Shown: positions 2,968 to 29,215, numbered from the stretch's first letter. The stretch is DNA of 64,000 bases from an uncultured delta proteobacterium (GCA_963811315.1 CAWERH010000039.1:4501-68500); one strand, 5' to 3'. Numbers and translations are program-made. Notes: a model not told the origin generated them from the letters alone.

Positions 2968-3960
2968 ATGACGCTTCGGAGTCGTAAATCCAAGTTTCTT
3001 GTCTGCTTTATTTTGGCTGTTGTTATTCTCACCGGCACCCATACGGCTGCCCTCGCCCAGGACAAAATTCGCGCCGCCTATAGTTCGATCAGCGGGATTT
3101 TTACTCCGGTGTGGATCGCCAGCGATCTGCGGCTCTATCAAAAGTATCAGACCGACGCCGATCTCGTGTACATCGGCGGTTCGGCGGTGGCGGTGAGTGC
3201 GTTGATCGCCGGTGAAATCGATTTTATCTACGGCGGAGCCGATCCGATTATTGCCGGTATTTTGGGTGGCGCGGATCTCACGCTGGCGGGATTCATCTCC
3301 AATAAGACACCGATCAGTCTCTATGTTGGCCCTGGGCTTACCAAAGTCGAAGATCTGAAAGGCAAAACCGTGGCGGTGACCCGGTTGGCTTCGAGCACTG
3401 CCTATATGGCGAAGGTTTGCTTTGGCCAGTATCGCTTGGAGCCGGTGAAGGATATCCCGTTGATTCAATCGGGCGGCTACCCGGAATCGCTGGCGATGCT
3501 GCAAGCCGGACGCGTACAGGGCGCGATGCTATCGCCGCCGTTTACCTATAAAGCCGAGGCTCTTGGCTTCAAACGCATCTGGAACGGCTCCGGCGTGGAG
3601 TATCCGTCTTTCGTCCTGGCGACCCGCAAAACATTCATCCGTGACTCCGCCGATCGAGCACAAAGGGCTTTTAACGCGGTCGCCGAAGGCGTGCACATCT
3701 TCAGAACCGACAAGGAGCGGGCCATTCGCGTCATGGCGAAATACACCAAGGTCAACGACCGAACGATTCTTGAAAATACCTACTTGGATAACAAGGACGT
3801 CTACAGCCCCAACATGCGCCCGACCGCGAGCGGCGTAAAACCGATTCTGGATATTCTGGCAGCGTCCAATCCGAAGGCCGCAGCGGCGAAGCCGGAACAA
3901 TTTTTCGACGTGACCCTGTCACGGCGTTTGGAAGAGAGCGGCGTGATGAAAAAGTTCTAA
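2968..3960 (+). CDS. NMT1/THI5-like (SsuA/TauA-type) periplasmic substrate-binding protein
   Basis: 330 aa with signal peptide and DKIRAAYSSISG...DLKGKTVAV motifs. Member of a large paralog family in this window. Confidence 0.85.
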   Translation: MTLRSRKSKFLVCFILAVVILTGTHTAALAQDKIRAAYSSISGIFTPVWIASDLRLYQKYQTDADLVYIGGSAVAVSALIAGEIDFIYGGADPIIAGILGGADLTLAGFISNKTPISLYVGPGLTKVEDLKGKTVAVTRLASSTAYMAKVCFGQYRLEPVKDIPLIQSGGYPESLAMLQAGRVQGAMLSPPFTYKAEALGFKRIWNGSGVEYPSFVLATRKTFIRDSADRAQRAFNAVAEGVHIFRTDKERAIRVMAKYTKVNDRTILENTYLDNKDVYSPNMRPTASGVKPILDILAASNPKAAAAKPEQFFDVTLSRRLEESGVMKKF

Positions 3961-3965
3961 GCGGT

Positions 3966-5006
3966 TCACGTCATATTGTAAAATCGTTTGGCATTCTCGC
4001 TGAAAACTTTTCGCTTGACCCGTTCCGATAGATCGCCCCTTTCCCAGAATTCGGGGATGTCCTTGGCGAACGCGCCGGCTTCGCGCTCGTGGGGGAAGTC
4101 GGTGGGATACATCAGGTAATCCTCGCCCATCTCGCGCACGACGACATCGAGGGTCTTTTCATCGGTTTCACAGGTAATGTAGATGTTGCCGTTCTTGAAG
4201 TAGTCGCTGGGCTTCTTGCTCAGCGGAAAATGTCTGCGTTTGCGATCGATGTGGAATTTCTCATCCATTCTATCCATCATGTACGGAATCCATCCAGCGC
4301 CGGCTTCGAGGAATCCGATTCTCAGCTTCGGATAAAGGTCGAAGACACCGTCGAGGACGACGCTGGTAAGCTGGATCATCTGCGCGATCGGATGTTCGAG
4401 CGTGTGGATCATCGACATGGTCTGGAGAAAATCGAAACCCAAACCGCGGCTCACCGCCCCGTGCACGGTCAACGGTACGTTCAGATCCTGCGCTTCTTTA
4501 TAAATCGGATGGAAATCCTGATGGCCATAGCCTTTATTCAGCATGGTCACCGCGGGCAAGAGGCCCGCAACCATGCGCTGTTCTTTGACCGCGCGGCGCA
4601 GTTCGGCGGCGGCTTCCGGCGGATTGTGCACCGGCAGCAACGCCACGCCTTTCAATCGGGCGTCGACTTTGCAGTAACGATCGAAGAGCCAGTTGTTATA
4701 CATGCGCGCCACGACGCAGGCCCAATCGGGATCTTGGATCAAGCCCAGGGACAGCCCGGCGGTCGGATAGAGCACCGCGGCGGAGATCTTCGAGCCCTCG
4801 ATGAACTGGATCCAACTATCGGAGGTAACCTTGGTGACCTTGTCGATGCCGCGCACAAAGCCGCGCGGCCAGCCGTCGAGCGAGGGAAAAATTGAAAAAG
4901 TCCCGGTGCGCCGATGGCCTTTATAATCTCCATCAAAGTATTGCTCTAGCTCCGCGTCGGTTTCCAATACGTGGCCGTCCGCATCGATTACAGTGACTCC
5001 ATCCAT
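3966..5006 (-). CDS. amidohydrolase-2 family protein
   Basis: 346 aa, MDGVTVIDADGHVLE... with HxH start and a C-terminal DFPHE acid/His region. Intact ORF. Confidence 0.85.
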   Translation of the reverse strand: MDGVTVIDADGHVLETDAELEQYFDGDYKGHRRTGTFSIFPSLDGWPRGFVRGIDKVTKVTSDSWIQFIEGSKISAAVLYPTAGLSLGLIQDPDWACVVARMYNNWLFDRYCKVDARLKGVALLPVHNPPEAAAELRRAVKEQRMVAGLLPAVTMLNKGYGHQDFHPIYKEAQDLNVPLTVHGAVSRGLGFDFLQTMSMIHTLEHPIAQMIQLTSVVLDGVFDLYPKLRIGFLEAGAGWIPYMMDRMDEKFHIDRKRRHFPLSKKPSDYFKNGNIYITCETDEKTLDVVVREMGEDYLMYPTDFPHEREAGAFAKDIPEFWERGDLSERVKRKVFSENAKRFYNMT

Positions 5007-5363: not shown

Positions 5364-6452
5364 GTGGGAATTATCGACGCAGACACTCATATCGACGAAA
5401 CGGACGCGACTTGGGAATACATTCAGGAAGACGACTTGCCCTACAAGCCGTCGACGGCTTATCCATCGAATCCGGACCCAAAACTGCCGCCGGCGCGTTA
5501 TTGGGTGATCGACGGCAAGCGTCAGGTGCGCTTCATTCGCAGCGATAAAGATTCGGGCACGACCGTGGCGACCCGCGAGCTGCTGGATGTCAAAGCACGC
5601 CTGAAGCATATGGATGAGTTGGGCACGGACATACAGGTGATTTATCCGACGTTGTTTCTCATGGAAGCGACGGAAAAGCCGGAAATCAATACCGCGATGC
5701 GACGCAGCTATAATCGTTGGTTGGGCGAGCGCTGCGGCGAATCGGGCGGCAGATTGCGTTGGGTGTGCATGCCGCCGCTGCAGAATATGGACGCGACTGT
5801 CGAAGAACTGACCTGGGCTAAAGAGCATGGCGCCTGCGGTGTTTTGAAAAAAGGTGACCGGGAAGTGGGTAAATATCCGGCCGATCCATACTTTGAACGG
5901 CTGTATGCCGAAGCCGAGAAACTCGATATGCCGATCTGTCTGCACACCGGATCCGGGATTCCGGATTTTTCGCCGGCGCGAGAATTCTCCCACGGTCAGT
6001 TCATGCGCACGAAGGCGGCAGTGATCAATGGAGTGCTCGGCCTGGTGCTGCACAAGATCCCCTTAAAGTTCCCCAAGCTGCGCATTGGCTGCATCGAAGC
6101 CGGTTCGATGTGGGCGCCGTTCGTGGCTTACGATTTAAAGCGCCAGGCTTTAAAACAGCAGGGACGTGAGTCGGTAGGGGTTCTCGGTGTGCCGCTGATC
6201 GACATTCCGGCGAACGTCTTCAAAGACAACCGAATCTATGTGACGTGTCAAGTGGACGAAGATTTGCCCTACATCCTCAAAACCATCGGTGAAGATAATT
6301 TGATGGTCGGATCGGATTACACCCACCGCGACCCGTCAATGGAACTGGAGTTCCGCAAGGAATTGGAAGGACGCGCCGACAAAGGCGACATCCCGCAGGC
6401 GTCGGTGCAGAAGATTCTTTACGACAACCCGAAGGCGTTCTATGCGCTATAA
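5364..6452 (+). CDS. amidohydrolase-2 family protein
   Basis: 362 aa, GTG start after SD AAGGAG: VGIIDADTHIDETD...YPTLFL...MVGSDYTHRDP. Intact. Confidence 0.85.
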   Translation: MGIIDADTHIDETDATWEYIQEDDLPYKPSTAYPSNPDPKLPPARYWVIDGKRQVRFIRSDKDSGTTVATRELLDVKARLKHMDELGTDIQVIYPTLFLMEATEKPEINTAMRRSYNRWLGERCGESGGRLRWVCMPPLQNMDATVEELTWAKEHGACGVLKKGDREVGKYPADPYFERLYAEAEKLDMPICLHTGSGIPDFSPAREFSHGQFMRTKAAVINGVLGLVLHKIPLKFPKLRIGCIEAGSMWAPFVAYDLKRQALKQQGRESVGVLGVPLIDIPANVFKDNRIYVTCQVDEDLPYILKTIGEDNLMVGSDYTHRDPSMELEFRKELEGRADKGDIPQASVQKILYDNPKAFYAL

Positions 6453-6522
6453 TCATCTTGTCGCCCGATTGCGGCGAGCTTAACGCCGTGAGCGGTCGTT
6501 AAACTGAAGAAGAGGAGTTTAG

Positions 6523-7074
6523 ATGATCATTCTCAGTCCGGAAGGAAAAGCGCAGACCTCAGGGGCAAAAATCGCGAGCTTGCCGCAGTTCACCGAACTG
6601 CGCGGCAAAGTGGTCGGTTGGCTCGACAACAGCAAGCCCAACGCCGACAAGCTGGCGGAACGGTTTGGCGAGCTTTTAAAAGAAAAATACGGCGTGGCCA
6701 ACATGATTACCAGGCGCAAACTGACCGCGCAGCAAGGCGCGCCGAAACAATATCTCGACGAGCTCGCATCGCAGGCCGACTTTGTCATCTGCGGCCTGGG
6801 TGATTGAGGCTCGTGCACGTCGTGGAGTGTCCACGACTCCCTCGAAATTCAAAAGCGCGGCCGTTTTGCGATCACGCTGATCACCCACGCTTTCGTGGCG
6901 CTGGCAAAATCCGAGAAGGAAGCTTTTGGCGCGCCCGATCACCCGGTGTTGGTCGTGCAGCATCCTATCGGCACGGTCAAAATCGAAGAAGTTAACAAGA
7001 AGGCCGAGGCGGCCTTCGATCAAGCTGGTAAAAATCCTGCTCGACGCCGGAAACGGCGCGGTCAAAGTCGCTAG
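6523..7074 (+). CDS. UGSC-motif selenoprotein (UGSC-family (seleno)protein), copy 1; in-frame UGA at 6805-6807 read as selenocysteine
   Basis: The ORF tool stops at TGA 6805-6807 (..FVICGLGD*). The same frame continues GSCTSWSVHDSLEIQKRGRF... to TAG 7072-7074. The downstream peptide is conserved with paralog 18780-19343. A SECIS-like hairpin sits 11 nt after the UGA. SD AGAGGAG lies 6 nt before the ATG. Confidence 0.7.
6819..6837 (+). other. candidate bacterial SECIS stem-loop GUCGUGG-AGUGU-CCACGAC
   Basis: A perfect 7-bp stem with a 5-nt G-containing loop starts 11 nt 3' of the UGA. The 27 nt tcgtgcacgtcgtggagtgtccacgac are identical to paralog 19071-19097, while flanking synonymous sites have diverged. 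Confidence 0.6.
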
Positions 7075-7134
7075 CCTGGAGGTTGGAGTTTCGGTCTCGA
7101 GTCCGCAGGATCGTCAAGCCGGCCCTTCGAAAGC

Positions 7135-7220
7135 TGTCATGATGAGCGCGAGCGAAGCATCCAGGTTCGCAGTGCCGTTCAGTTAAGAGAAGCCTGGATT
7201 CCTCGTGCTCATGGCAATGA
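7135..7220. repeat. MITE/REP-like imperfect hairpin element (termini GTCAT...ATGAC)
   Basis: tgtcatgatgagcgcgagcgaagcatccagg ... cctggattcctcgtgctcatggcaatgac form an ~85-nt inverted repeat. It is intergenic, between the selenoprotein gene and its partner gene. Confidence 0.55.
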
Positions 7221-7303
7221 CGGAAGGGCGACTTACAGTTGGCACAGTCAGGTTATTCTGGACGAAAGGTGACGGCGGGATTTGAGGGAACGTTTACGCA
7301 AAA

Positions 7304-8357
7304 ATGGCAGAACAACCACTTCAAGCGGAACGATTCGAAATTCCCGACGACCTTTGGGCGGCGCAGGCTTTTTTTGAAGAAAAGGGATGGTCCGATGGTT
7401 TGCCGATCATTCCGCCGACGGAAGAGCGGGTGGCGCAGATGCTCGGCGGCGACGACCCGAAAACCGGACGAGTTGATCGGCGCGGTGCCGCCGCGCTGGG
7501 CGCAGGCGAGCGTCGAGAAGATCGCGATCAATGGCGTCATGGCCGGATGCAAACCGGAGTACATGGCAACCCTGATTGCCGCGGTCGAAGCGATCACCGA
7601 TCCCAAGCTCAATCTTTATGCGTTGCAGGCGACCACGGGCGGACCGGCGGTGATGATCATCATCAACGGCCCGATCCGCCATAAGCTCAACGTCAACGGC
7701 GGGCCCAACGCGTTGGGCGAAGGGTGGCGCGCCAACGCCACCATCGGCCGGTTCGTGCAATTGATCAAACGCAATATCGGCGGCTCCTATCCGGGCACCA
7801 CCTGCAAGGCGACGCTTGGCTGGCCGGGAAAATATTCGATCTGCGTCGGCGAAAATGAAGAGGCGAGTCCGTGGGAACCGCTGCACGTGGAGCGCGGTTT
7901 CAAAGCCGAGCAAAGCACGGTGACGGCGATCAGCGCCGATGCTTCAATACGAGCGTCGGATTTGGACAGCTCGAAAGCGGAAGGCGTGCTGATCAATTTC
8001 GCGCAGAAAATGGACGGCCCGTCCGGGCCGGAAGCGATCATGGTCATTTGCCCGGAGCATGCCAAGATCATTGCCGATGACGGCTTCAGTAAGAAAGACG
8101 TGCAGAAATTTATCTGGGAGCGCGCCGCGTACCGGATGAAGGATTTGCCGGACGAGACCTTCGCGCAACGGGTCAAACGGCGCAGCGATCTGAAGCTCAC
8201 CCGCGACAGCATCATTCCGGTGACCGATAGGCCGGAGGACATACTCGTCATCGTCGCCGGCGGTGACGGCTCGCAGTCGCAGTACATCCACGTCTGGGGT
8301 CAGAGCACGCCGGAAGGCGGGTCGACGCGCAGCGTCACGAAACTCATACGGGATTAA
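7304..8357 (+). CDS. conserved hypothetical protein genetically linked to the UGSC selenoprotein (partner, copy 1); frameshift at the A4 run 7460-7463
   Basis: MAEQPLQAERFEIPDDLW..GLPIIPPTEERV (ORF 7304) continues in ORF 7239-8357 as ..ELIGAVPPRWAQASVEKIAINGVMAGCKPEY...GWPGKYSICVGENEE... It is paralogous to 19885-20967 along its whole length. Confidence 0.7.
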
Positions 8358-8405: not shown

Positions 8406-8418
8406 AACGCATTGTCCG

Positions 8419-9440
8419 ATGTCTTACCCTCGCCCGCTTGCGGGAGAGGGAAGGGTGAGGGCGTGCATCGACGCGTTATTAATTATCAGCCTGCTTTTGA
8501 GCTTTGTTGTCCTGGTAGCGAAATTTGCTTCGCCGCCGACAAGCTGCGCATCAGTTACTCGGGCACGACGACGAGCAACGCGCTTCTTTGGGTGACCAAG
8601 GAAGCGAAACTTTTTGACAAGAACGGCATCGACGCGGAAGTGCTTTATCTGGCGGCGTCGCTCGGCCAGACCGCGTTGATCGCGGGCGAGACCCAGTTCG
8701 CGGTCTACACGGGACTGCTGATGACGCCAACCCGCCTGCAAGGCGCCGACGTTACGATGATCGCCGGGTTTCTAAATTATCTGGTCTCGCGCTTGGTCGT
8801 GCGTCCGGACATCAAGACCGCCGCGGATTTAAGAGGCAAACGTTTGGCCGTGTCGCGTTTCGGCACGGCGTCGGATTTCGGTACCCGCTTGATGGTGTCC
8901 AAGCTCGGTTTGAATCCCGACACCGACGTCACGATCTTGCAGATCGGCGACACGCCCACCCGGGTCGCCGCACTGATGGCCAAGAGCGTCGACGGCGCGA
9001 TCTTCGATCCGCCCGATCACAAAAAGGCCATCGAAAACGGCGGCCGCATCATGATGAACTTGGAGGAAACCGCGATTCCGTATCAGCATGCCGGTTTGAT
9101 GACGACGCGAAAGTACATCGCCGCCCGGCCGGACATCGTTCGGCGGGTGGTCAAAGCGATTGTCGAGGGCGCCGCGGTGGTGCGCAAAGATCCGGAGACC
9201 ACCAAGCGGGCGCTGTCGATCCGCATGCGCATCAAAGATCCCAAAGACCTCGAAGAAACCTATCAGCAGCTGCGCGGCTTCACGCAAGCCAAACCCTATC
9301 CAAGCCTGGAAGGTTTCAAAGCGATCTTGAACGATTTGTCCAAGCGCGTGCCCGCGGCGAAAAATGCCGATCCGAAAGATTTTGCCGATCTCCGGTTCGT
9401 CGAAGAACTGGATAAGTCGGGTTATATCGATGGACTCTAA
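8419..9440 (+). CDS. NMT1/SsuA-like periplasmic substrate-binding protein; frameshift near 8545
   Basis: The signal-peptide frame MSYPRPLAGEGRVRACIDALLIISLLLSFVVLVAKFA shifts into AADKLRISYSGTTTSNALLWV... The gene is a tandem paralog of 9494-10471. Confidence 0.75.
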
Positions 9441-9470
9441 AGGCGTGAGGCTTGAGGCGGGAGGCTAGAG
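9441..9470. repeat. 7-mer tandem array AGGCGTG AGGCTTG AGGCGGG AGGCTAG
   Basis: It follows the TAA stop at 9438-9440 directly. Confidence 0.4.
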
Positions 9471-9493
9471 TCGTGTGGACAAAGACGTATTTT

Positions 9494-10471
9494 ATGCTTG
9501 AAAAGTTAACGCCGATTCTCACTGTAATTCTGGCTGCAGTTTTGTTGCTGCGCTCCGCATCGGCCGGCGCCGCCGATAAGATTCGTATCGGTTACTCCGG
9601 CGCGACGGTCAGCAACGCGATGCTCTGGGTGACCGACGAAGGCAGACTGTTTCAAAAAAACGGCATCGATCCGCAAATCCTCTATTTGCAAACGACGCTC
9701 GGACAGACGGCGATGATCGCCGGTGAAATCGACATGTGCGTCTACTCCGGCAGTCTGCTCTCGGCGGCGCGCTTGCAGGGAGTCGACGTGGTGATGGTCG
9801 TAAGTTTTCTCAACAAGCCGCTCTATCGGCTGGTGGTTCGCCCCGAGATTCGCACGGTCGCCGATCTCAAGGGAAAACGGCTCGGCATCACGCGCTTCGG
9901 CACTGTCACCGATTCGATGTCCCGGCTCCTGATCAACAAACTCGGACTCGATGCCGAGAAAGACGTTTCTTATATTCAGGTCGGTGATGTGCCAATCCTG
10001 TTAGCTTCCTTGTCGTCAGGCAAGATTATCGACGGCGCGATCATTCAGCCGCCTTATTATTTGAAGGCGGTGGCCACCGGCATGCGCGTTTTGGTGAATA
10101 TGCAAGAGATGGACATCCCGGTCCAACAAACCGGGCTCAATACCACGCAGAAGTTCATCGCGAAAAATCCCGATGTCGTGCGGCGGGTAGTCAAGTCGGT
10201 GATCGAAGGGATCCATCTGATGCGCACCAATCCCGCCGTGGCCAAGCGGGCGCTCTCCAGGCGCATGCAGATCAAAGATGAAAAAGAGATCGAAGACACC
10301 TATCAATTGCTGAAGAGTTTCGTGCAGATCAAGCCGTATCCGACTCTGGAAGGCTTCAAAACCATTTTCGAAGATCTGGCGAAAAGAGTTCCGGCGGCAA
10401 AGAACGCCAATCCCAAGGAATTTGTCGACACCCGGTTTATCGAAGAGTTGGATAAGCTCGGGGTTTATTGA
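9494..10471 (+). CDS. NMT1/SsuA-like periplasmic substrate-binding protein
   Basis: MLEKLTPILTVILAAVLLLRSASAGAADKIRIGYSG... Intact. The ATG at 9494 is preferred over the ORF-tool start at 9452 because it gives a proper signal peptide. Confidence 0.85.
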   Translation: MLEKLTPILTVILAAVLLLRSASAGAADKIRIGYSGATVSNAMLWVTDEGRLFQKNGIDPQILYLQTTLGQTAMIAGEIDMCVYSGSLLSAARLQGVDVVMVVSFLNKPLYRLVVRPEIRTVADLKGKRLGITRFGTVTDSMSRLLINKLGLDAEKDVSYIQVGDVPILLASLSSGKIIDGAIIQPPYYLKAVATGMRVLVNMQEMDIPVQQTGLNTTQKFIAKNPDVVRRVVKSVIEGIHLMRTNPAVAKRALSRRMQIKDEKEIEDTYQLLKSFVQIKPYPTLEGFKTIFEDLAKRVPAAKNANPKEFVDTRFIEELDKLGVY

Positions 10472-10524
10472 CGCATTGGAGCGCCAGTGATACGCGATGC
10501 TTGACGGATAATTGGGGAGGAACG

Positions 10525-11520
10525 ATGTTGAGAATACAAAGATCGCTGATGGGTGTCGCTTTGATTGTGGCTTTCGCCACTCCTGCCCTGGGGCAAAGCC
10601 TGCCCAAAGTCCGCGCCGCCTACACATCCATAAGCATCCAATTCGATGCGGTTTACATCATGAAGGAGCTCAACCTGCCGCGGAAATACGGCTTGGATGC
10701 CGAAATTCTTTTTGTGCCGGTGAGTTCGCGCGCCGTGCAGGCGGCGCTCGCGGGCGAGATTCAATTTATCACCAGTGGCGGCGTGGCCAATATCAATGCG
10801 AACGTCACAGGCGCCGATTTCACCGGGCTTACCGCGACACTCAATACTTTTGTCTTCAAGGTCTTCGCGAGCCCGGAGATCAAAAAGCCTGAGATGTTAA
10901 AGGGCAAGAAGGTCGGCATTTCCCGTCTCGGCGGCGCCAGCGATTTTTCTATTCGCTATGCGCTAAATTACTGGGGTCTCGTCCCCGACAAAGACGTTGC
11001 CATCATCCAGGTGGGCGGCGAACCGGAGTCGCTTCTGGCGCTACAAAACAAAGCCGTGGACGCGGCGATCTTATCGGAACCGTTTGCAAGCCTGGCAAAG
11101 CGCAATGGCTCAGTGCTGCTGGCTGATTTAAGTCAGCTCGGCGTGCCTTACACGATGCACGGCTTCGGGGTGCGCAAGAGTTACATTCAGGCCAATCGGG
11201 ACGTTGTCGTCCGATTCATGAAAGCCTATCTCGAAGGCATCTATGTTTTCAAAACCAACAAGGACATTGCGTTGAACGTCCTGAAAAAATATACCCGGCA
11301 GGACGATCTTTCCCTCGTACAAGTGGCCTATGAGGAAATGTCCCAGAAGCTTATCCGCAGAGTCCCGTACCCCAACCGCGAAGGGATTCAGACGATCATA
11401 GATCAGCTCGCCAAGACCCGGCCGGAAATGAAAAATCTCAACCCCGGCGACTTCATCGATCCGTCGATCTTGAAAGAAATCGAGGACAGCGGGTTTATTA
11501 AAAAGTTGTATGGAAATTAG
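10525..11520 (+). CDS. NMT1/SsuA-like periplasmic substrate-binding protein
   Basis: ATG at 10525 after SD GGAGG: MLRIQRSLMGVALIVAFATPALGQSLPKVRAAYTS... Intact. Confidence 0.85.
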   Translation: MLRIQRSLMGVALIVAFATPALGQSLPKVRAAYTSISIQFDAVYIMKELNLPRKYGLDAEILFVPVSSRAVQAALAGEIQFITSGGVANINANVTGADFTGLTATLNTFVFKVFASPEIKKPEMLKGKKVGISRLGGASDFSIRYALNYWGLVPDKDVAIIQVGGEPESLLALQNKAVDAAILSEPFASLAKRNGSVLLADLSQLGVPYTMHGFGVRKSYIQANRDVVVRFMKAYLEGIYVFKTNKDIALNVLKKYTRQDDLSLVQVAYEEMSQKLIRRVPYPNREGIQTIIDQLAKTRPEMKNLNPGDFIDPSILKEIEDSGFIKKLYGN

Positions 11521-16007: not shown

Positions 16008-17021
16008 TCAACGGTAGCCGGCATCGTCGGCAGGCAGACCACGTTCTTGGACCTCCACGAGGTAGCGCCAGCAGTCCGGCTGGGTGCCGTCGATGTCGGT
16101 GAAGCCGTAGATGGGGGCGAGCTGTCCGCTGGAGACGACCTTACCCGTCCAGCGCGCAACCTCCGGGTCCGCTGCGAGGGCGGCGACCGCGCGGCCGACG
16201 TAGGTCGGCGACTCGGAGATGCAAAAGTGCGGCATGCGGGCGGTCGCGTCCCGCCAGTTTGCTTCGGTCACGCCGTACGCGTCGAGCATCTTCTCCGAAC
16301 GCAGCCAGCCCGGAGTTACGGCGACGGCCGCGCCGTGGTGCGGGGCCAGCTCGTGACTCTGCGCGAGAGCCATGCGCTGCACGGCGTTTTTGACCAGGTC
16401 GTAGAAGAATCCCACCTGGTGGCGGTACGCCGCGTTGTACTCTGCGGTCCCGTCGGTCATCTCGATGACCAGCCCGCCGGGGCGGCGGATGAGCAGCGGC
16501 AGGGCGTGGTGGCTGGTGATCGCATGCGTGTCGATGCCCAGGCGCAGCATTCGCAGCCCGCCGGCGAGGTCGTGCTCCCACAGCTTGGTGTTGAACTGGA
16601 GGTAGGTGTCGCCGCCCCAGATGTCGTTCACGAGCACGTCGAGGCGGCCGTGGTCTCGGTCGATGCGCTGGACGAGATCGCGCACCTGCTCGCTTTCGAG
16701 GTGATCCACCCGCAAGGCGATTCCCACGCCCCCGGCGGCGGCGATCAGCTCACCGGTCTCTTCGATCGTCTCCGGCCGGTTGATTTCCGACCGGCCTGCC
16801 CGGCTGCTGCGCCCGGTGGCGTAAACTGTCGCACCCGCGCGGGCAAGCTCTACGGCAATCGCACGTCCGGCGCCGCGCGTGGCGCCTGCGACTAACGCCA
16901 CTTTCCCGGTTAATGCTCCAGCTTTTGCTTCATTCTTCGCTGTGGCTTCCATTGGCATTTTCTTCTTGCGCGCACCCTTCCGCGCGCCACGAAACTTAGG
17001 TGCGTTTTCAACAAGCCTCAT
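16008..17021 (-). CDS. short-chain dehydrogenase/reductase (SDR) family oxidoreductase
   Basis: ..GKVALVAGATRGAGRAIAVELARAGATV.. (TGxxxGxG Rossmann motif). The ATG at 17019-17021 overlaps the TGA of the upstream amidohydrolase in an ATGA arrangement. The +strand ORF 15930-16895 is an antisense artefact of ~70% GC. Confidence 0.8.
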   Translation of the reverse strand: MRLVENAPKFRGARKGARKKKMPMEATAKNEAKAGALTGKVALVAGATRGAGRAIAVELARAGATVYATGRSSRAGRSEINRPETIEETGELIAAAGGVGIALRVDHLESEQVRDLVQRIDRDHGRLDVLVNDIWGGDTYLQFNTKLWEHDLAGGLRMLRLGIDTHAITSHHALPLLIRRPGGLVIEMTDGTAEYNAAYRHQVGFFYDLVKNAVQRMALAQSHELAPHHGAAVAVTPGWLRSEKMLDAYGVTEANWRDATARMPHFCISESPTYVGRAVAALAADPEVARWTGKVVSSGQLAPIYGFTDIDGTQPDCWRYLVEVQERGLPADDAGYR

Positions 17022-18114
17022 AGCCCATAAAACTTCCTCGGATTGTCACACAAGATCTTTTCCACGAGACTTGGCGCCACGTCTTCGCGCGCCTTCATCT
17101 GGGTCACCAGATGAGCTTGTTCAGCGGGGTCGTTGTGACCGTAGTCGGAGCCGGTGAGCAGGTGGCCTTCGCCGGTGTACTTGATTAGGTAGGGAATATC
17201 TTCGTCGGCCTCGCAGGCGACGAAGAAACGGCAATCTTCGAAAAGATCGGCAGGGGATTGCCACGATGCTTTCCAGCGTTTGGTGTTGTCGCGCCGTAGC
17301 TTGTGGATCAAGTAGGGTATCCAACTGGCGGAAGCTTCGATGAAGCCGAAGCGCAGTTTTGGAAACATGTCGGGAATCTGATTGAGCACGAGATCGCGAA
17401 ACGCGTGCAGGGGCGGAAAGCCGGAGTGAGACCATTGCCGATTGCGCTCCAGATCGAACATCGCGGTGACGGCCGGGGTGCCGGAGCCGGTGTGAATGCA
17501 GATCGGTAGATCGAGTTCCATCGACGTTTGATATACCGGGAAAAAGTACGGGTTGTCCAAGGTCAAGTTGCCTTCCATGCCGCGGAAGAATACCCCGACG
17601 GCGCCGTTTTGCTTGGCCCACTTCAGCTCCTGCACCGATTCCTCGATGCAACGCAGCGGCGGGATCGCCACCCAGTGGATGCGGTCGTGACTCTGCGCGC
17701 AGGCTTGCGCCATGAAACGGTTATAGGCGCGGCTCAACGCCACGTCGAGCTCGGCGTCGTCGGTGAGGTAGATCAGAAACAGAGTCGGATAAACCACCTG
17801 AGCCGCGATGCCGCCGCGATCCATATCGGCGAGCCGGGCCGGGACGTCGGTCAACTCTCGGCACGCGACCTGAATGTCTTTTCTGTTCGATTGGATTTTC
17901 GACGCCGAGGGGTGACGAGACGGAAGCCGCCCTTGCCGACCGGCTTGGGAAAAATGTTGCCGTCGATCAGCCAGGTCGCATTCCAGCCGCCGTATAACGT
18001 GTCGTCCGGCAGAGACAGCAAAACCGGCCGGCGCGGGTACATCTCCTTGTCGATCATCTGCCACATGGCTTCCGATTCGGCTACGTGAGTATCGGCATCG
18101 ATGATGGGTTGCAT
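17018..18114 (-). CDS. amidohydrolase-2 family protein; frameshift at the G4 run near 17908-17911
   Basis: N-terminus MQPIIDADTHVAESEAMWQ..GKGGFRLVTP (ORF 17851-18114) joins ..SASKIQSNRKDIQVACRELTD...PICIHTG...TGSDYGHND..FYGL (ORF 17018-18064). Paralog of 1533-2646. Confidence 0.75.
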
Positions 18115-18779: not shown

Positions 18780-19343
18780 ATGGCGACGATTAAATTTCTC
18801 GATCCCCGAGTGGTGATCAATCCCAAAGACCAGCCGCTGGTGCCGGGTCTGGATACGCTCGAAGGAAAAGTTATCGGCATCATCGATAACGGGCAGGCCA
18901 ATTCGACGACGATGTTTCAAGAGCTGGCGCAACTGATGCAAGAAAAACTTCATACCAAGGAAGTTCTGTTCAAAACCAAACCGACGCACATGCAGGGCGC
19001 GCCGAAACCGATCATGGAAGAAATCCTCAACCGGTGCGACGCGGTGATCACCGGTTTAGGCGCTTGAGGGTCGTGCACGTCGTGGAGTGTCCACGACGCC
19101 ATCGAATTGCAAAAGAAGGGAAAGCCGACGGTAACCCTGTGCCAGTCGATCTTTATGGCGCTGGCGCGCACCGAGGCGAAGTTTTTCGGCATCGCTAAAT
19201 TACCTCTGGTCGAAATCCCGCATCATCCGAGCGGCGGCGCACGGCCTGGTGAGCATCGAGCGGATGCCGAGGGCGCGGTTAGTTTGGTTAATGAGCAGTT
19301 GACGCTGGGTGGGGCGGCGTTGAAGAAGACGCGACAGCGGTGA
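18780..19343 (+). CDS. UGSC-motif selenoprotein, copy 2; in-frame UGA at 19065-19067 read as selenocysteine
   Basis: ..VITGLGA U GSCTSWSVHDAIELQKKGKPTVTL... continues to TGA 19341-19343. The peptide after the UGA aligns with copy 1 (SLEIQKRGRFAITL.. versus AIELQKKGKPTVTL..). SD AGGAGG lies 9 nt before the ATG at 18780. Confidence 0.7.
19079..19097 (+). other. candidate bacterial SECIS stem-loop GUCGUGG-AGUGU-CCACGAC (identical to 6819-6837)
   Basis: It starts 11 nt after the UGA and its nucleotide sequence is conserved between the paralogs. Confidence 0.6.
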
Positions 19344-19465
19344 TCCTGGAGCGATGGAGGAAGAAATATGGATAAGCGTGATCGAGTTTCGGGTTGATTT
19401 TGAACGGTGCCGCATTCCTTTCCCCCTTGCGGGGAAAGGAAAGGATAGGGGGTATGCGAGCAACA

Positions 19466-19864
19466 ATGAACGCGAGCCCGGAAGCTGCGGAAAAATCCAA
19501 CCGATGCCGAGCGTTTGCTCTGGCAAAACTTCGTTTCTGGCAAGTTGACGGTTGCAAATTTCGCCGTCAACAACCCTATAGGAAATTACATTGTTGACTT
19601 TGTTTGTTTAGAAAAAAGATTGATTATCGAGGTCGACGGCGGACAGCATGCTGAACATATGAATTACGGATACCGACCGTGATGCTTGGTTACGAAATCC
19701 GAGGGTTATGTAATTTTAAGATTCTGGAACAACGATGTGTCTAAGAAGATAGATGGCGTCAAGGAAGTGATATTTCAATCCTTGCAAAGCACCCCCTACC
19801 TTAGTCCTTCCCCGCAATCGGGGGAGGAATGGTTGAGAAGCTAGGAAGATCGCATCGAGCACGA
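19466..19864 (+). pseudogene. DUF559 (Vsr-like endonuclease domain) gene with at least 4-5 frame disruptions; pseudogene or error-dense
   Basis: Reconstructable as M-TRARKLRKNPTDAERLLWQ|KLRFWQVDGCKFRRQQP|IGNYIVDFVCLEKRLIIEVDGGQHAEH..DRDAWLRN..GYVILRFWNNDV..IFQSLQ across three frames. Each break is at a short homopolymer. The gene sits in a ~540-bp lower-GC insert between the selenoprotein gene and its partner. Confidence 0.55.
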
Positions 19865-19884
19865 ATAATCTTTCAACGTGTGAA

Positions 19885-20967
19885 TTGGAGTTACCGACAG
19901 TGCAAAACCTCACCTCTAACCTCATCGAAGTCGAAGACAGCTGGGAAGCGGTCAATGACTGGTTCTGCAACGAAAAACTGAGTGACGGTTTGCCGATCGT
20001 GCCGCCTACGGCGGAGCGGGTCGAACGAATGCTCGAGCGCGACGAATCGCGGGATCCGCAGGAAGTCATCGGGCCAATCCCGCCGAAGTGGGCGCCTTGT
20101 TCGATCGAGAAGATTGCCATCAATGCGGTCATGGCCGGCTGTTTGCCGGAATATTTGCCGGTGATCATCGCGGCGGTGGAAGCGATCTGCGAACCGCGCT
20201 TCAATCTCTATGGCGTGCAAGCGACTACCGGATACGTCGGCCCGGCGCTCATGCTCAACGGTCCGATTCGCAAAGCACTCAACGTCAATTGCGATGCCGG
20301 CGTGTTTGGTCCCGGCTTTCGCTCCAACGCGACCATCGGCCGCGCCATTCGATTGATTCTCATCACCGTCGGCGGCGGCTACCCGGGCGACACCGATCGC
20401 TCGACTTTTGGCTGGCCGGGCAAGTACACCATGTGCTTTGGCGAAAATGAGGAGAAGAGTCCGTGGGAGCCGTATCACGTGGAGTTCGGTTTTAAACCTG
20501 ACGAAAACAGTGTGACGGTGTTCGGCATCAATGGTTTTTTGCCGATCCACACGGCCGGCAGTCGCGGCGAGCAGGCGCTTGCTTCGCTCGCAGAAGTTAT
20601 TCGCATGCACCACGGCGTGAGTCATCTCGACGTCGGCAGTTTTGGCGGCGGCACACCGCTGGTTGCCCTGGGCGTCGAAGACGCCGAGATCATGGCGCGC
20701 GACGGCATCACCAAGAAACAAGTCAAGGACTTTCTCTGGGAGCACGCGTCGCTCAAATTTTCCGAAGTTCCGGCGCGCCGCAAAGGCCACAAAGACGACG
20801 CCGAGTTGCTGCGCGAATCGCCCAACGTTACCCCCGATGGCGTCGTCCATCTTTCCACGAAGGCCGAAGACATCATGGTCATCGTGGTTGGCGGCAAGCA
20901 TCGCCATTCGGTATTTCTGCCGATGTGGACCGGGCGCAATACGCTGTGCGTGATCAAGCCAATTTAA
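19885..20967 (+). CDS. conserved hypothetical protein genetically linked to the UGSC selenoprotein (partner, copy 2)
   Basis: 360 aa and intact: ..SDGLPIVPPTAERV..EKIAINAVMAGCLPEY..NLYGVQATTG..GWPGKYTMCFGENEEKSPWEPYHVE.. TTG start at 19885. The 19891-21120 minus-strand ORF is antisense. Confidence 0.75.
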   Translation: MELPTVQNLTSNLIEVEDSWEAVNDWFCNEKLSDGLPIVPPTAERVERMLERDESRDPQEVIGPIPPKWAPCSIEKIAINAVMAGCLPEYLPVIIAAVEAICEPRFNLYGVQATTGYVGPALMLNGPIRKALNVNCDAGVFGPGFRSNATIGRAIRLILITVGGGYPGDTDRSTFGWPGKYTMCFGENEEKSPWEPYHVEFGFKPDENSVTVFGINGFLPIHTAGSRGEQALASLAEVIRMHHGVSHLDVGSFGGGTPLVALGVEDAEIMARDGITKKQVKDFLWEHASLKFSEVPARRKGHKDDAELLRESPNVTPDGVVHLSTKAEDIMVIVVGGKHRHSVFLPMWTGRNTLCVIKPI

Positions 20968-21010: not shown

Positions 21011-21999
21011 GGAGGATGGAGGATCGCCCGCGCGGCGGCGATTTTCATGCTCGCGTTTCTGTTCGCCACGGTTTGTAATGCGCAGGAGAAATTTCGCTTT
21101 CCGATCGCTGAATCGTCCAAGACCTTGAGCTATGGTCCGCTCTGGGTCGCCTCGAAGATGGGTTTCTTTGACAAGGAAGGCTTGGACGTGCCGATCGTCA
21201 CCATGCGCGGTTCGCCGCTGGCGATTCAGGCGCTGACCGCCGATTCGATTTATATCGCCAACGCGACCGTCGATACCCTGATCAACGCCTACGAGAAAGG
21301 CGCGGATATCACGATGATCGGCGGGCCTGATCAACGGGCTTGGACTTGAGCATGATCGGCGGCAAGCCCTATAAGACCTATGCCGACCTGCGCGGCACGA
21401 CGATCGGCACGCAGACGCTGACTTCCGGCACTGGATTCGCTCTTCGCTTGGTGCTCAAGGTGCACGGCTTGGAATATCCGCGCGACTACGCGCTGCTCAA
21501 CATCGGCGGCGCTTCGGACCGCTATCAAGCGCTGACGTCCGGTCAAATTTCTTCCGCCCCGGTCGGCGTGCCTCTCGATCTGGTTGCCAAACAGCAAGGC
21601 TTCAACATCATCGGTTATTTTGCCGATGACCAACCGAACTTTCAGTTTAATGTCTACATCGTCAAACGCTCCTGGGCGGAAAAAAACCGGCCGCTGACGG
21701 TGCGCTTCATGAAAGCGATGGCGTCGACCATGCGCTGGATGGCGGACAACCGCGACGCTGCCTGCACCTATCTTTCAAAGGAAATGGCGATCAGCGTCGA
21801 GCATTGCCGCTATGCCTCCGACTACAACTGGAAAAGCCGCATCTGGGACCGCAATGCCGATATCAACATCGAGGGCGTGCGCACGCTGATCAAAATCACC
21901 GCCGAGCAAGGCATTCTCAAAGAACCTTTACCCCAGCCGGCGAAATACCTCGATCAAAGTTATCTTAAGCAGGCGCTGGCGGAACTGGCGAAGAAATAA
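20987..21999 (+). CDS. NMT1-like periplasmic substrate-binding protein (subtype B, paralog of 29216-30186); frameshift near 21335
   Basis: ORF 20987-21349 (..FLFATVCNAQEKF..LWVASKMGFFD..TMIGGPDQR) joins ORF 21340-21999 (LDLSMIGGKPYKTYADLRG...LEYPRDY...). Confidence 0.75.
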
Positions 22000-22056
22000 C
22001 AAGGCGAAGAGGCACGAGGCTTGAGACGGAAAACTACAAGGGATTGAGGAGATCGC

Positions 22057-23058
22057 ATGAGACAATCAACGCGTTTGGGATTTTTGATTTTGTTCTTGAG
22101 CGCGGTGGCTGTCGCCGCTTCCGCGAATGCTCAGGACAAGATACGCATGGGGCTCAGCTCGGTGAGCGGGTTGCACAGCGCCGTGTGGGTCGCGGCGGAA
22201 AAGGGACTGTTTCGCAAGCACGGTATCGACGCCGAAGTGATCGTCACCGGGCAGGGCGGTACTGCCGGTATCAGCGCGCTGATCGCCAACGACGTCCAGA
22301 TAGTCAATTCAGCGGGTGATGTTCTAGTTGCGGCGGCGTTGCGCGGCGGTGACACCGTGATGATCGCGGGGGTCGTCAACAAGGGGCTGCAGCGATTGGT
22401 CACCAAACCGGAGATCAAAGCGCCGGCGGATTTGAAGGGCAAGCGGATCGGCGTCACCCGGATCGGCGCGGTCTCTCATTCGGTTCTGCTGATGATGCTG
22501 CAGCAGTGGAAAATGAGCCCCAGCGACGTGCAGGTCATGCAGCTCGGCTCGTCGCCGAGCATGCTGGCGAGCCTCGACAAGGGCGGCATCGAGGGCGCGG
22601 TGCTGACGATCCCGTCGATGTTCGTCGCCGAGGACCGCGGCTACCGTGTCTTGCTCGATATGGGGGATACCGACATTTACTATCTGCACACCATGGTCGC
22701 GACGACGCGCCAATACATCAAGACCAATCGCGACAAGGTTTTGCGATTTCTCAAAGGGTATGTCGAAGGTATCGCGTTCGTGAAGCAACACAAGAAGGAA
22801 AGTCTGGATATCGTCAAGAAAAAACTTCGGCTTGGCCCGGAGCAGGAACGCAATCTCGAACGGTCCATCGACCTGTTGATAGCGAAATACTACGAGTCGA
22901 TTCCCTATCCGTCGCTGCGCGGCGTCGAAACCGTGCTCGGGTTCGTCGAAAAGGACAACCCGAAAGCGAAAACCGCCGATCCGAAGTCTTTTGTCGATGA
23001 CAGTTTGCTGCGTGAGATCGAAGCCAGCGGGTTCGTCAAAACGCTTTACCAGCGCTAG
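22057..23058 (+). CDS. NMT1/SsuA-like periplasmic substrate-binding protein
   Basis: MRQSTRLGFLILFLSAVAVAASANAQDKIRMGLSS... 333 aa, intact. Confidence 0.85.
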   Translation: MRQSTRLGFLILFLSAVAVAASANAQDKIRMGLSSVSGLHSAVWVAAEKGLFRKHGIDAEVIVTGQGGTAGISALIANDVQIVNSAGDVLVAAALRGGDTVMIAGVVNKGLQRLVTKPEIKAPADLKGKRIGVTRIGAVSHSVLLMMLQQWKMSPSDVQVMQLGSSPSMLASLDKGGIEGAVLTIPSMFVAEDRGYRVLLDMGDTDIYYLHTMVATTRQYIKTNRDKVLRFLKGYVEGIAFVKQHKKESLDIVKKKLRLGPEQERNLERSIDLLIAKYYESIPYPSLRGVETVLGFVEKDNPKAKTADPKSFVDDSLLREIEASGFVKTLYQR

Positions 23059-23082
23059 GAAACGTTCGTTTCGGACAAGCCG

Positions 23083-24079
23083 ATGAAAATTCTCTGCTTT
23101 GGTCTTTTTGCCGTCGGCGTTCGCGCTTATTTTCGGCAGCCATGCCGACGCGCAGGACAAAATTAGAGTGGGGTTGAGCTCGGTGAGCGCTCTTCATGGC
23201 GCCATGTGGGTGGCTGAGCAAAAAGGATTGTTTCGTAAGCATGGCATCGAAACGGAAATCATCGTCACGGGCCAGGGTGCGACGGCGGGAATCGGCGCGC
23301 TGCTTGCCAACGATATTCAGATCGCCAGCGCCGGCGGAGATGCTCTGATTAACGCCGCCTTGCGCGGCGGCGAGACCGTGATGATCGCCGCCGGTATCAA
23401 TAAAGGATTGAACAGGATTATGGTGCGGTCGGATATCAAAACTCCGGCCGACCTTAAGGGAAGAAAGATCGGCGCGACTCGCGTCGGCGCCGTCTCTCAC
23501 TCGGTTCTTTTGATGATGCTCAAGCGCTGGAACATGAGCCCGGCGGATGTTCAGGTTCTCCAGCTCGGTTCTTCGCCGAACATGCTCCAAGCCTTGGACA
23601 AGGGCGGCATCGACGGCGCTGTGATGACGATCCCGTTCGTGTTCATCGCGGAAGATCGAGGTTTTCGCGTTTTAGTCGATCTGGCGGAAACGGATATTTA
23701 TTATCTTCACACGATGATTGCGTCCACGCGAAGCTATATCAAGGCCAATCGCGACAAGGCGTTAAGATTTCTCAAGGGTTTTCTCGAAGGCATCGCTTAT
23801 TTCAAGCATAACAAAAAGGAGAGTCTCGATATCGTCGGAAAAAAACTCCGTGTCAACGCAGACCAAGAGCGGAATCTCGAGCGCTCCTACGATCTTCTGG
23901 CGACGAAATATTACGAAGCCACGCCTTATCCGTCGCTGCGCGGCGTCGAAACCGTGCTCGGAATCGTCGAAAAGGACAATCCGAAAGCGAAAACTGCCGA
24001 TCCGAAATCTTTTGTCGATGACAGCTTGCTCCGCGAGATCGAACAGAGCGGTTTCGTAAAGACGCTGTACAAGAATTGA
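23083..24079 (+). CDS. NMT1/SsuA-like periplasmic substrate-binding protein, tandem near-duplicate of 22057-23058; frameshift in the T5 run 23104-23108
   Basis: MKILCFGL then a shift into LPSAFALIFGSHADAQDKIRVGLSS... The remainder is colinear with the upstream paralog. Confidence 0.75.
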
Positions 24080-27856: not shown

Positions 27857-27859
27857 GCC

Positions 27860-27957: not shown

Positions 27958-27959
27958 CT

Positions 27960-29171: not shown

Positions 29172-29215
29172 ATTCTTAGGACCAACCCCATCGATTAAAT
29201 ACGAGAGGGATTCAG

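What the first reader, a model, noticed from the sequence alone, without database searches (positions are those of the whole stretch)
6523..7074. In-frame UGA followed by a conserved stem-loop: candidate UGSC-family selenoprotein (copy 1)
The ORF tool terminates at TGA 6805-6807 (FVICGLGD*), but the same frame stays open for 88 more codons (GSCTSWSVHDSLEIQKRGRFAITL...). That extension is conserved at the protein level with the region after the UGA in paralog 18780-19343. This conservation is not expected if the TGA were a real stop. Eleven nt after the UGA there is a perfect hairpin GUCGUGG-AGUGU-CCACGAC, the canonical position for a bacterial SECIS. The 27 nt tcgtgcacgtcgtggagtgtccacgac are 100% identical between the two paralogs, while the 8 codons just upstream differ at 6 synonymous sites. 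That indicates RNA-structure constraint on top of coding constraint. The resulting U-G-S-C (UxxC) redox-type motif matches the 'UGSC-containing' selenoprotein family reported from marine metagenome selenoproteome surveys, a family of unknown function. No Sec machinery genes (selA/selB/selC/selD) lie in this window.
Basis: partly seen in the sequence, partly recalled or inferred. Interest (0 to 1): 0.85.

Follow-up and report, generated by a model that had tools for sequence, protein, structure and literature searches.

The report
UGSC-family selenoprotein gene with SECIS
The in-frame TGA at 6805 is almost certainly a selenocysteine codon in a member of the already catalogued UGSC selenoprotein family; the family's function is still unknown, but the gene always travels with one uncharacterised partner gene, which gives a way to study it.

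Summary
ORF 6523-7074 has an in-frame TGA at 6805-6807. Read through, it matches Pfam PF24696 (UGSC, E 6.5e-43) and NCBIfam NF041046 'UGSC family (seleno)protein' (127.8 bits, cut-off 125).

All 95 related genes collected from Binatia, Betaproteobacteria, Chloroflexota and others keep TGA at this codon. More distant relatives carry Cys there (121 of the best 150 cluster representatives).

The hairpin at 6819-6837 meets all four criteria of the published bacterial SECIS model. It is kept in 88 of 88 distinct TGA genes, with compensatory changes at synonymous sites. It is lost in 4 of 4 distant Cys homologues that encode the same peptide. TGA is an ordinary stop elsewhere in the window.

New points:
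- The last ~17 codons of copy 1 are garbled by four single-base indels.
- The predicted fold is flavodoxin/Rossmann-like, not thioredoxin-like.
- The family shows weak but recurrent similarity to GrdB/PrdB 'selenoprotein B', with U aligned on U.
- Every UGSC gene with enough flanking sequence lies next to, and is sometimes fused with, a ~350-aa protein. That protein has no Pfam or NCBIfam family, two invariant Cys and no solved structural relative.

Selenocysteine machinery could not be checked. The family is known, so novelty is low.

The parts
6512..6517 (+). Shine-Dalgarno-like GAGGAG, 5 nt upstream of the ATG of UGSC copy 1
   Evidence: Read directly from the sequence. Homologues start at the same Met (MIVLSPEGK...).
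6523..7074 (+). UGSC-family selenoprotein gene, copy 1 (183 codons including Sec95). Codons from about 7021 onward are disturbed by four single-base indels.
   Evidence: Pfam PF24696 E 6.5e-43. NCBIfam NF041046 127.8 bits against a cut-off of 125. Full-length homologues P0001-P0007 at 68-89% identity. Indels seen against L007.
6805..6807 (+). UGA read as selenocysteine (U95 of the U-G-S-C motif)
   Evidence: TGA is kept in 95 of 95 related genes. Cys occupies this column in 121 of 150 family representatives. TGA is a normal stop in 8 of 19 Pfam-supported genes of the window.
6819..6837 (+). Bacterial SECIS hairpin: stem 6819-6825 with 6831-6837, loop AGUGU 6826-6830, 11 nt after the UGA
   Evidence: -11.1 kcal/mol. 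99% of cells paired in 88 distinct sequences, with 2 covarying pairs. Lost in 4 of 4 distant Cys homologues with the same peptide. Meets the bSECIS criteria.
7304..8357 (+). Partner gene of copy 1 (~350 aa, no known family), split by a 1-nt indel near 7448 (frame of 7304, then frame of 7239)
   Evidence: 45% identical to the copy-2 partner. Homologue P0234 is colinear across the shift. Sequence read.
18780..19343 (+). UGSC-family selenoprotein gene, copy 2 (UGA 19065-19067; SECIS hairpin 19079-19097)
   Evidence: Pfam PF24696 E 1.1e-40. NCBIfam 110.2 bits, below the equivalog cut-off of 125. Identical 27-mer at 19071.
19885..20967 (+). Partner gene of copy 2 (360 aa, intact): invariant C86 and C184, no Pfam or NCBIfam family, no solved structural relative

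Best explanation
6523-7074 is a real gene for a 183-residue selenoprotein of the UGSC family.

**Shown**
- The UGA at 6805 lies at a position where close relatives always have UGA and distant relatives have Cys.
- The peptide after the UGA is conserved.
- 11 nt after the UGA lies a 7-8 bp hairpin with an A-G-U-R-U loop. It is conserved at the RNA level only in the UGA-containing genes.

**Inferred from the established bacterial Sec pathway**
- SelB-GTP-Sec-tRNA(Sec) binds this hairpin while the ribosome sits on the UGA and inserts selenocysteine.

**Shown by prediction only**
- The product is a five-stranded parallel alpha/beta (flavodoxin/Rossmann-like) domain.
- U95-G-S-C98 sits in the loop after strand 3 and the first turn of helix 3, next to other family-conserved polar residues (N36, K38, K66, D94, D105).

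**Inferred mechanism**
- Sec95 and Cys98 cycle between a selenol/thiol state and a selenenylsulfide, as in the UxxC centre of GrdB/PrdB-type selenoprotein B, to which the family is weakly similar.
- The protein works as the redox or nucleophilic small subunit of the ~350-aa protein encoded immediately downstream. That partner has two invariant Cys. The two are always adjacent and are fused in some organisms.

The substrate is unknown. Neighbouring genes hint at carboxylic-acid catabolism.
For: **Family membership.**

**TGA and Cys pattern.**
- TGA is conserved in 95 of 95 genes from 90 loci spanning Binatia, Betaproteobacteria/Burkholderiales, Dehalococcoidia/SAR202, Rhodospirillaceae and Acidobacteria-like MAGs.
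- Database entries of 94 aa end exactly at ...GLGD, and full-length entries carry W there, i.e. TGA translated with another code.
- Cys occupies the U column in 121 of the best 150 representatives out of 2,444.

**SECIS.**
- In 88 distinct sequences 99.0% of stem cells pair.
- The only two stem pairs made of two synonymous third positions both covary: G-C to A-U four times and twice, with G-U intermediates.
- The loop Ser is AGU in 88 of 88, while the Ser two codons after the UGA uses TCG, TCC, TCT and TCA freely.
- RNAalifold finds this hairpin and nothing else.
- All four bSECIS criteria are met: 7 bp plus a 5-nt loop, loop pattern N1-G-U-N-N2, 18 nt between UGA and loop, and -11.1 kcal/mol.
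- Control: four distant Cys homologues that encode CGSCTSWS(V/A)HD use ACC TCC/TCA TGG AGC ... codons that cannot form the hairpin.

**Genetic code.** TGA terminates 8 of 19 Pfam-supported genes here.

**Partner link.**
- The partner is immediately downstream on the same strand in 76 of 76 loci with enough sequence.
- It is also adjacent in Cys-type loci.
- Natural UGSC-partner fusions of 485-564 aa exist.

**GrdB/PrdB link.** 28 of 58 members hit TIGR01917 (best E 2.6e-5), 20 GrdF, 17 TIGR01918, 12 GrdH and 5 PrdB. U aligns on U.
Against: - No selenocysteine machinery (selA, selB, selC, selD) is in the window or in the 854 kb of sequence held.
- There is no experimental evidence (75Se labelling, proteomics) for any member that I could find. 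Reviews still list the family as uncharacterised.
- The hairpin codes for a strongly conserved peptide (TSWSVHD), so most stem positions cannot vary. Covariation rests on two pairs and six cells.
- The context folding energy is unremarkable.
- The assembly is error-prone, with indels in this gene's tail and in its partner. The window copy of the operon as read is therefore not intact.
- The GrdB/PrdB similarity is far below those models' cut-offs, and Pfam GRDB did not hit.
- The partner shows no similarity to GrdE or PrdA.
- The redox-cycle and subunit roles are inference.
Confidence: 0.9

Rival explanations
1. The TGA is a true stop. The gene makes a 94-residue protein, and the downstream open frame is a separate ORF or a decaying remnant.
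For: Gene callers annotate hundreds of homologues as 94-aa proteins. The window copy has indels in its tail.
Against: - The downstream peptide is conserved in frame across phyla.
- It belongs to the same Pfam domain as the upstream part; the profile matches residues 3-168 in one stretch.
- Cys homologues are continuous proteins.
- The AF2 model places the U in the middle of a single compact domain.
Confidence: 0.02
2. The organism reads TGA as a sense codon (Trp or Gly, as in genetic codes 4 and 25), so no selenocysteine is involved.
For: Some JGI entries translate the codon as W.
Against: - TGA terminates 8 of 19 genes in the window whose Pfam matches run to the end of the profile.
- The hosts are ordinary code-11 lineages.
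- Distant homologues have Cys, not Trp or Gly, at this column.
Confidence: 0.01
3. The TGA is an assembly or sequencing error for TGC or TGT in an indel-prone long-read assembly.
For: The window carries several obvious indels. One relative (L096) has TGC with an otherwise identical hairpin.
Against: - The errors seen are indels, not substitutions.
- TGA is found in both paralogs and in 95 of 95 genes from independent short-read and long-read assemblies.
Confidence: 0.01
4. Selenocysteine is inserted, but the conserved hairpin is only a by-product of peptide and codon conservation, or serves another role such as pausing or mRNA stability. The real SECIS would then lie elsewhere.
For: Five of seven stem pairs never vary, so they say nothing either way. 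No binding data exist.
Against: - Synonymous sites are frozen only inside the hairpin and only in TGA genes.
- Both variable pairs change compensatorily.
- Position, loop sequence and stability fit the bSECIS model.
- RNAalifold finds no alternative conserved structure within 54 nt after the UGA.
Confidence: 0.04

Closest known systems
UGSC family (seleno)protein (NCBIfam NF041046; Pfam PF24696; 'UGSC-containing protein' of the Sargasso Sea and GOS selenoproteomes)
   Same: - Profile match over the whole protein.
- U-G-S-C motif at the family's position.
- Sec and Cys forms both exist.
- SECIS lies directly after the UGA.
- Function is unknown.
- Fusion to an unknown domain was already noted in GOS reads (PMC2398784).
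   Different: Nothing essential. These are Binatia-type members, public copies of which are annotated as 94-aa hypothetical proteins. Copy 2 scores below the NCBIfam equivalog cut-off (110.2 against 125). The literature guessed a thioredoxin-like fold; the model here is flavodoxin/Rossmann-like.
Selenoprotein B of glycine, sarcosine, betaine and D-proline reductases (GrdB, GrdF, GrdH, PrdB; TIGR01917, TIGR01918, TIGR04483)
   Same: - UxxC selenocysteine motif after a beta-strand and at the start of a helix, followed by a G-(I/V)-P-T-V-type strand.
- Weak but recurrent profile hits: 28 of 58 members, best E 2.6e-5.
- U aligns on U.
- Works with a second, separately encoded subunit.
   Different: - Scores are far below family cut-offs, and Pfam GRDB is not hit.
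- UGSC is only ~180 aa.
- Its partner shows no similarity to the pyruvoyl proproteins GrdE and PrdA.
- Hosts are mostly aerobic soil and water bacteria rather than Stickland fermenters.
Bacterial SECIS elements (E. coli fdhF type; bSECISearch consensus)
   Same: - Stem-loop inside the coding region, starting 11 nt after the UGA.
- Small apical loop with G-U.
- 18 nt between UGA and loop.
- Stability below -7.5 kcal/mol.
   Different: - No bulged U and no long lower stem are conserved here.
- The sequence is unrelated to fdhF.
- No Rfam family matches.
Thioredoxin-fold UxxC/CxxU selenoproteins (Trx-like, Prx-like, SelW-like)
   Same: Redox-type UxxC motif at a helix N-terminus. Sec/Cys interchange across homologues.

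Membership tests
UGSC family (PF24696 / NF041046) | Profile match above the curated cut-off | tested here: met
   Copy 1: Pfam 147.3 bits (cut-off 25) and NCBIfam 127.8 bits (cut-off 125). Copy 2: Pfam 140 bits, but NCBIfam 110.2, below 125.
UGSC family (PF24696 / NF041046) | U/C-G-S-C motif at the conserved position, with Cys-containing homologues | tested here: met
   The motif D-U-G-S-C-T-S-W-S-V-H-D is present in both copies. Cys occupies the U column in 121 of 150 representatives.
Bacterial selenoprotein gene | In-frame UGA conserved in orthologues, with conserved coding sequence on both sides | tested here: met
   95 of 95 genes have TGA. The alignment is conserved on both sides of it.
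Bacterial selenoprotein gene | bSECIS: 4-16 bp upper stem, 3-9 nt loop, G in the first two loop positions, 16-37 nt from UGA to loop, MFE <= -7.5 kcal/mol | tested here: met
   7 bp plus loop AGUGU (or 8 bp plus GUG). 18 nt spacing. -11.1 kcal/mol. Criteria taken from PMC13188914.
Bacterial selenoprotein gene | RNA-level (not only peptide-level) conservation of the SECIS | tested here: met
   Two covarying pairs. The loop Ser is AGU in 88 of 88 sequences. The hairpin is absent from 4 of 4 distant Cys homologues with the same peptide.
Bacterial selenoprotein gene | Genome encodes SelA, SelB, SelD and tRNA-Sec | not testable with these tools
   Only 64 kb of the genome is available. It has no tRNA, no Rfam hit and no SelD-like hit.
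Bacterial selenoprotein gene | Selenium shown in the protein (75Se labelling or mass spectrometry) | not testable with these tools
   This is an experiment. Reviews list the family as predicted only.
GrdB/PrdB selenoprotein B family | Profile match above the curated cut-off | tested here: not met
   Best E 2.6e-5. Window copy 2 scores 15.3 bits against a cut-off of 602. Pfam GRDB is not hit.
GrdB/PrdB selenoprotein B family | Sec of the UxxC motif at the homologous position | tested here: met
   The UGSC profile aligns AAUPVC and PNUPVC of GOS GrdB-like and PrdB-like reads on G-D-U-G-S-C. The scores are low.
GrdB/PrdB selenoprotein B family | Adjacent pyruvoyl proprotein subunit (GrdE or PrdA) | tested here: not met
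   The adjacent partner has no Pfam or NCBIfam match, even at E <= 10.
Thioredoxin-fold redox selenoproteins | Thioredoxin fold | tested here: not met

The most novel reading that the evidence does not exclude
Probability: 0.3. Interest if true: 0.6.

Novelty: new member of a known kind. Interest (0 to 1): 0.33.

Why it matters
On its own this is an annotation correction. Two genes in the window, and hundreds of public homologues called as 94-aa 'hypothetical proteins', are full-length selenoproteins of a family described in 2005-2008 that now has curated models.

The wider value is that the family's function is still unknown, although it is among the most abundant selenoprotein families in aquatic metagenomes (255 Sec sequences in GOS; PMC2398784). 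The data here give concrete handles:
- a strictly conserved, sometimes fused partner gene with no annotation and no solved structural relative;
- a fold assignment that differs from the published guess;
- a weak but consistent link to the GrdB/PrdB selenoprotein B enzymes.

The locus also provides a clean natural control for SECIS prediction: the same peptide with the hairpin in Sec genes and without it in Cys genes.

Tried and rejected
- **Rfam.** A scan of the whole window at gathering thresholds gave nothing.
- **tRNA.** ARAGORN found no tRNA in the window. One tRNA, not tRNA-Sec, was found in all 854 kb held.
- **SelD.** This says nothing about the rest of the genome.
- **PDB sequence searches.** UGSC, as a single sequence and as a profile, gave only noise: a designed coiled coil and adenosylhomocysteinase at E > 0.05. 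The partner also gave only noise.
- **Family libraries on the partner.** Pfam and NCBIfam gave nothing, even at E <= 10 over 25 members.
- **AFDB fold search.** The library was not available.
- **GOS Figure S1A.** The UGSC/Unknown_1 fusion panel is held only as an image. I could not confirm that 'Unknown_1' is the partner found here.
- **Other selenoprotein genes.** A window-wide scan for in-frame TGA with long open frames on both sides gave many open frames, as expected in a 57% G+C sequence. None other than the two UGSC genes had a comparable hairpin and motif.
- **Third UGSC copy.** None was found by tblastn. The weak hits at 50564 and 21452 are chance.
- **Partner as a pyruvoyl proprotein.** Considered because of the invariant A-G-C86, and left as unsupported. 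The model puts C86 between two helices and there is no GrdE or PrdA similarity.
- **Literature on Binatia and selenocysteine.** The search gave nothing useful.

Full report
**1. The observation**

The mechanical ORF 6523-6807 (94 aa) ends at TGA 6805-6807. The same frame runs on for 88 codons to TAG 7072-7074. A second gene, 18780-19343, has the same layout, with its TGA at 19065-19067. The two read-through products align at 39% identity on both sides of the TGA.

The 27-mer TCGTGCACGTCGTGGAGTGTCCACGAC occurs exactly twice in the window, at 6811 and 19071. Within it, all eight codons that could differ synonymously are identical. Elsewhere in the two genes only 25 of 50 identical-residue codons are identical.

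The hairpin GUCGUGG/AGUGU/CCACGAC occupies 6819-6837, 11 nt after the TGA. It folds at -11.1 kcal/mol on its own and appears in the MFE and centroid structures of the surrounding 76 nt. The total energy of that context is not unusual for this G+C-rich DNA (z about -0.8). Thermodynamics alone therefore proves little.

**2. One correction**

The frame-1 tail of copy 1 (...QAGKNPARRRKRRGQSR) is not the family's C-terminus. Compared with the closest relative (L007), the window has two 1-nt insertions and two 1-nt deletions between about 7021 and 7071. Homologues end ...AAFDQLVxILLxP...KVA*. The indels cancel, so the stop at 7072-7074 is correct.

The window has other single-base indels. One is in the downstream partner gene near 7448. 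Another is in a solute-binding-protein gene near 42710. Its nearest relatives are long-read MAG contigs labelled 'uncultured delta proteobacterium MFD...' and 'Candidatus Binatia'. These indels look like assembly errors, but genuine mutations cannot be excluded.

**3. What it is**

With Cys substituted for the stop, copy 1 matches Pfam PF24696 'UGSC family' (E 6.5e-43, residues 3-168 in one stretch). It also matches NCBIfam NF041046 'UGSC family (seleno)protein' at 127.8 bits against a cut-off of 125. Copy 2 gives Pfam E 1.1e-40 but only 110.2 bits against NCBIfam.

The family was described in the Sargasso Sea and GOS selenoproteome surveys. In GOS it had 255 Sec and 21 Cys sequences, a UxxC motif and no known function (PMC2398784). 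A 2026 review still lists it as uncharacterised (PMC13188914).

**4. Is the TGA a selenocysteine codon?**

- A search of 5.8 billion proteins gave 690 hits. Most of the 120 listed are 94-aa entries ending ...GLGD, which are gene-caller truncations. The few full-length entries have W at the position (TGA translated with another code), and one has Cys.
- In 90 loci from Binatia, Betaproteobacteria/Burkholderiales, Dehalococcoidia/SAR202, Rhodospirillaceae and others, all 95 genes carrying the CTSWS[VI]HD-type motif have TGA. The search pattern favoured close Sec-type relatives.
- A filter-free HMMER search of 1.84 billion cluster representatives found 2,444 family members. Of the best 150, 121 are continuous proteins with Cys in the U column. 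About ten end exactly at the U position. This is the classical Sec/Cys signature.
- TGA is an ordinary stop in 8 of 19 Pfam-supported genes of the window. That excludes a reassigned genetic code.

**5. Is the hairpin a SECIS?**

In 88 distinct sequences, 99.0% of stem cells form standard pairs. Sliding the 3' arm by 1-3 columns drops this to 19-62%. RNAalifold predicts this hairpin and nothing else.

Five pairs never vary, because the stem encodes T-S-W-S-V/I-H-D. The two pairs built from two synonymous third positions both covary:
- ACG...GAC changes to ACA...GAU four times, with four G-U intermediates.
- UCG...CAC changes to UCA...CAU twice, in a Dehalococcoidia genome and in a betaproteobacterial genome, with one G-U intermediate.

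The loop Ser is AGU in 88 of 88 sequences, and the codon closing the stem always ends in C. By contrast, the Ser two codons after the UGA uses TCG, TCC, TCT and TCA freely.

There is also a natural control. Four distant Cys homologues that encode the same peptide (CGSCTSWS(V/A)HD) use ACC TCC/TCA TGG AGC GTC/GTG/GCG CAC GAC/GAT, which cannot form the hairpin. One close Cys variant (L096, coverage 1.6) keeps the hairpin. It is either a very recent Sec-to-Cys change or an error.

The element meets all four criteria of the published bacterial SECIS model:
- a 4-16 bp stem and a 3-9 nt loop;
- G in the first two loop positions, here A-G-U-R-U, which fits N1-G-[G|U]-N-N2;
- 16-37 nt from UGA to loop, here 18 nt;
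- MFE <= -7.5 kcal/mol, here -11.1 kcal/mol.

**6. What could not be checked**

No tRNA, Rfam family or SelD-like sequence is in the window. The rest of the genome was not available. Sec decoding is therefore inferred from the gene's own features, not from the presence of the machinery.

**7. Beyond the finding: a constant partner**

Both UGSC genes are followed on the same strand by paralogous ~350-aa genes: 7304-8357 (frameshifted) and 19885-20967. These are 45% identical to each other.

- The family has more than 7,500 homologues, all 'hypothetical', with no Pfam or NCBIfam match even at E <= 10.
- It has invariant Cys86 and Cys184.
- It lies immediately downstream of UGSC in 76 of 76 genome loci that extend far enough. 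It is also adjacent in Cys-type loci, once in the reverse order.
- Natural UGSC-partner fusion proteins of 485-564 aa exist in at least 13 representative clusters. This is probably the 'UGSC/Unknown_1 fusion' noted in GOS, but that figure panel is an image and I could not verify it.

**8. Fold and distant relatives of UGSC**

Across 58 diverse family members, weak hits recur to the selenoprotein B models: TIGR01917 (28 members, best E 2.6e-5), GrdF (20), TIGR01918 (17), GrdH (12) and PrdB (5). The UGSC profile aligns the U of GOS GrdB-like and PrdB-like reads (AAUPVC, PNUPVC) on its own U. All of these scores are far below family cut-offs, and Pfam GRDB was not hit. UGSC is therefore not a member of that family. 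The resemblance does suggest how it may work.

**9. Most likely mechanism**

Shown:
- a Sec codon with a functional-looking SECIS;
- a compact alpha/beta domain with U-x-x-C at a helix start, among conserved polar residues;
- an obligatory genetic link to the partner, sometimes as a covalent fusion.

Inferred:
- SelB-dependent Sec insertion;
- a selenol/thiol to selenenylsulfide cycle between U95 and C98;
- action as the redox or nucleophilic subunit of a heterodimer with the partner.

Neighbours of the pair outside Binatia are varied. They are enriched for TctC receptors (18 of 107 flanking ORFs), aconitase (5), MmgE/PrpD (5) and CoA-transferases or ligases. A TrxR-like gene lies directly upstream in one Chloroflexota locus. 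In Binatia the upstream gene is an Amidohydro_2 enzyme. This hints at carboxylic-acid catabolism but does not define a substrate.

**10. Verdict**

It concerns a family that is already described and has curated models, so this is a new (and publicly mis-annotated) member of a known kind. Interest is modest. What lifts it above routine is the strictly conserved partner, which I found described only as an unidentified fusion domain in GOS, together with the tentative selenoprotein B link. Both make the family's unknown function experimentally approachable.

Noticed in passing
window 7304-8357 (shift near 7448): The partner gene of UGSC copy 1 is split by a single-base indel in the run GGCGGCG. 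The frame of 7304 gives MAEQPLQ...EERVAQMLG, then the frame of 7239 continues ATTRKPDELIGAVPPRW.... Relative L007 has an intact 350-aa gene. L009 has a 372-aa gene call of the same length as the window's 7239-8357 ORF, which may mean the same split; its sequence was not checked.
   Followed up: partly
window 7021-7071: Compared with L007, the tail of UGSC copy 1 has two 1-nt insertions and two 1-nt deletions. These scramble the last ~17 codons but restore the frame before the stop. They look like long-read assembly errors or a compensated frameshift.
   Followed up: yes
window 19413-19844: A DUF559 (very-short-patch-repair-like endonuclease) pseudogene lies between UGSC copy 2 and its partner. 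It is in two frame-shifted pieces, 19515-19682 and 19686-19844 (Pfam E 2.5e-14 and 1.3e-5). It is bracketed by a 41-nt imperfect inverted repeat (19413-19453 and 19791-19831, 76% complementary). In L015 the same interval is only about 376 nt.
   Followed up: partly
window 42248-43242: A solute-binding-protein gene is broken into two overlapping ORFs by an apparent extra G near 42705-42715 (...EDLGEP* against ...LANPKWKDSLMGE).
   Followed up: partly
L015 4283-7609; L018 4283-7938 (compare window 6523-8357 and 18780-20967): In related Binatia genomes the two UGSC-partner pairs lie in tandem, about 1.9 kb apart. In the window they are 12 kb apart, separated by NMT1-like binding-protein genes, a hydrolase gene and other genes.
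   Followed up: no
L096 893-925 (protein P0004): A close relative has TGC GCC (Cys-Ala) in place of TGA GGC yet keeps the complete SECIS hairpin. This is either a very recent Sec-to-Cys conversion or an error in a contig of coverage 1.6.
   Followed up: partly
L091 4440-7032: In a Chloroflexota contig a thioredoxin-reductase-like flavoprotein gene (Pyr_redox_2, 319 aa) sits directly upstream of the UGSC-partner pair. It is a possible reductant for the U-x-x-C centre.
   Followed up: no
window 2968-30186: The region is dense in paralogous gene sets: NMT1-like binding-protein genes (2968-3960, 8412-11520, 21340-24079, 29122-30186), three Amidohydro_2 genes (3966-5006, 5364-6452, 17018-18064) and two family III CoA-transferase genes (26646-29171). 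ORF 21340-21999 covers only the C-terminal part of the NMT1 domain (Pfam profile positions 83-216 of 216), so it may be another truncated or frameshifted gene.
   Followed up: partly
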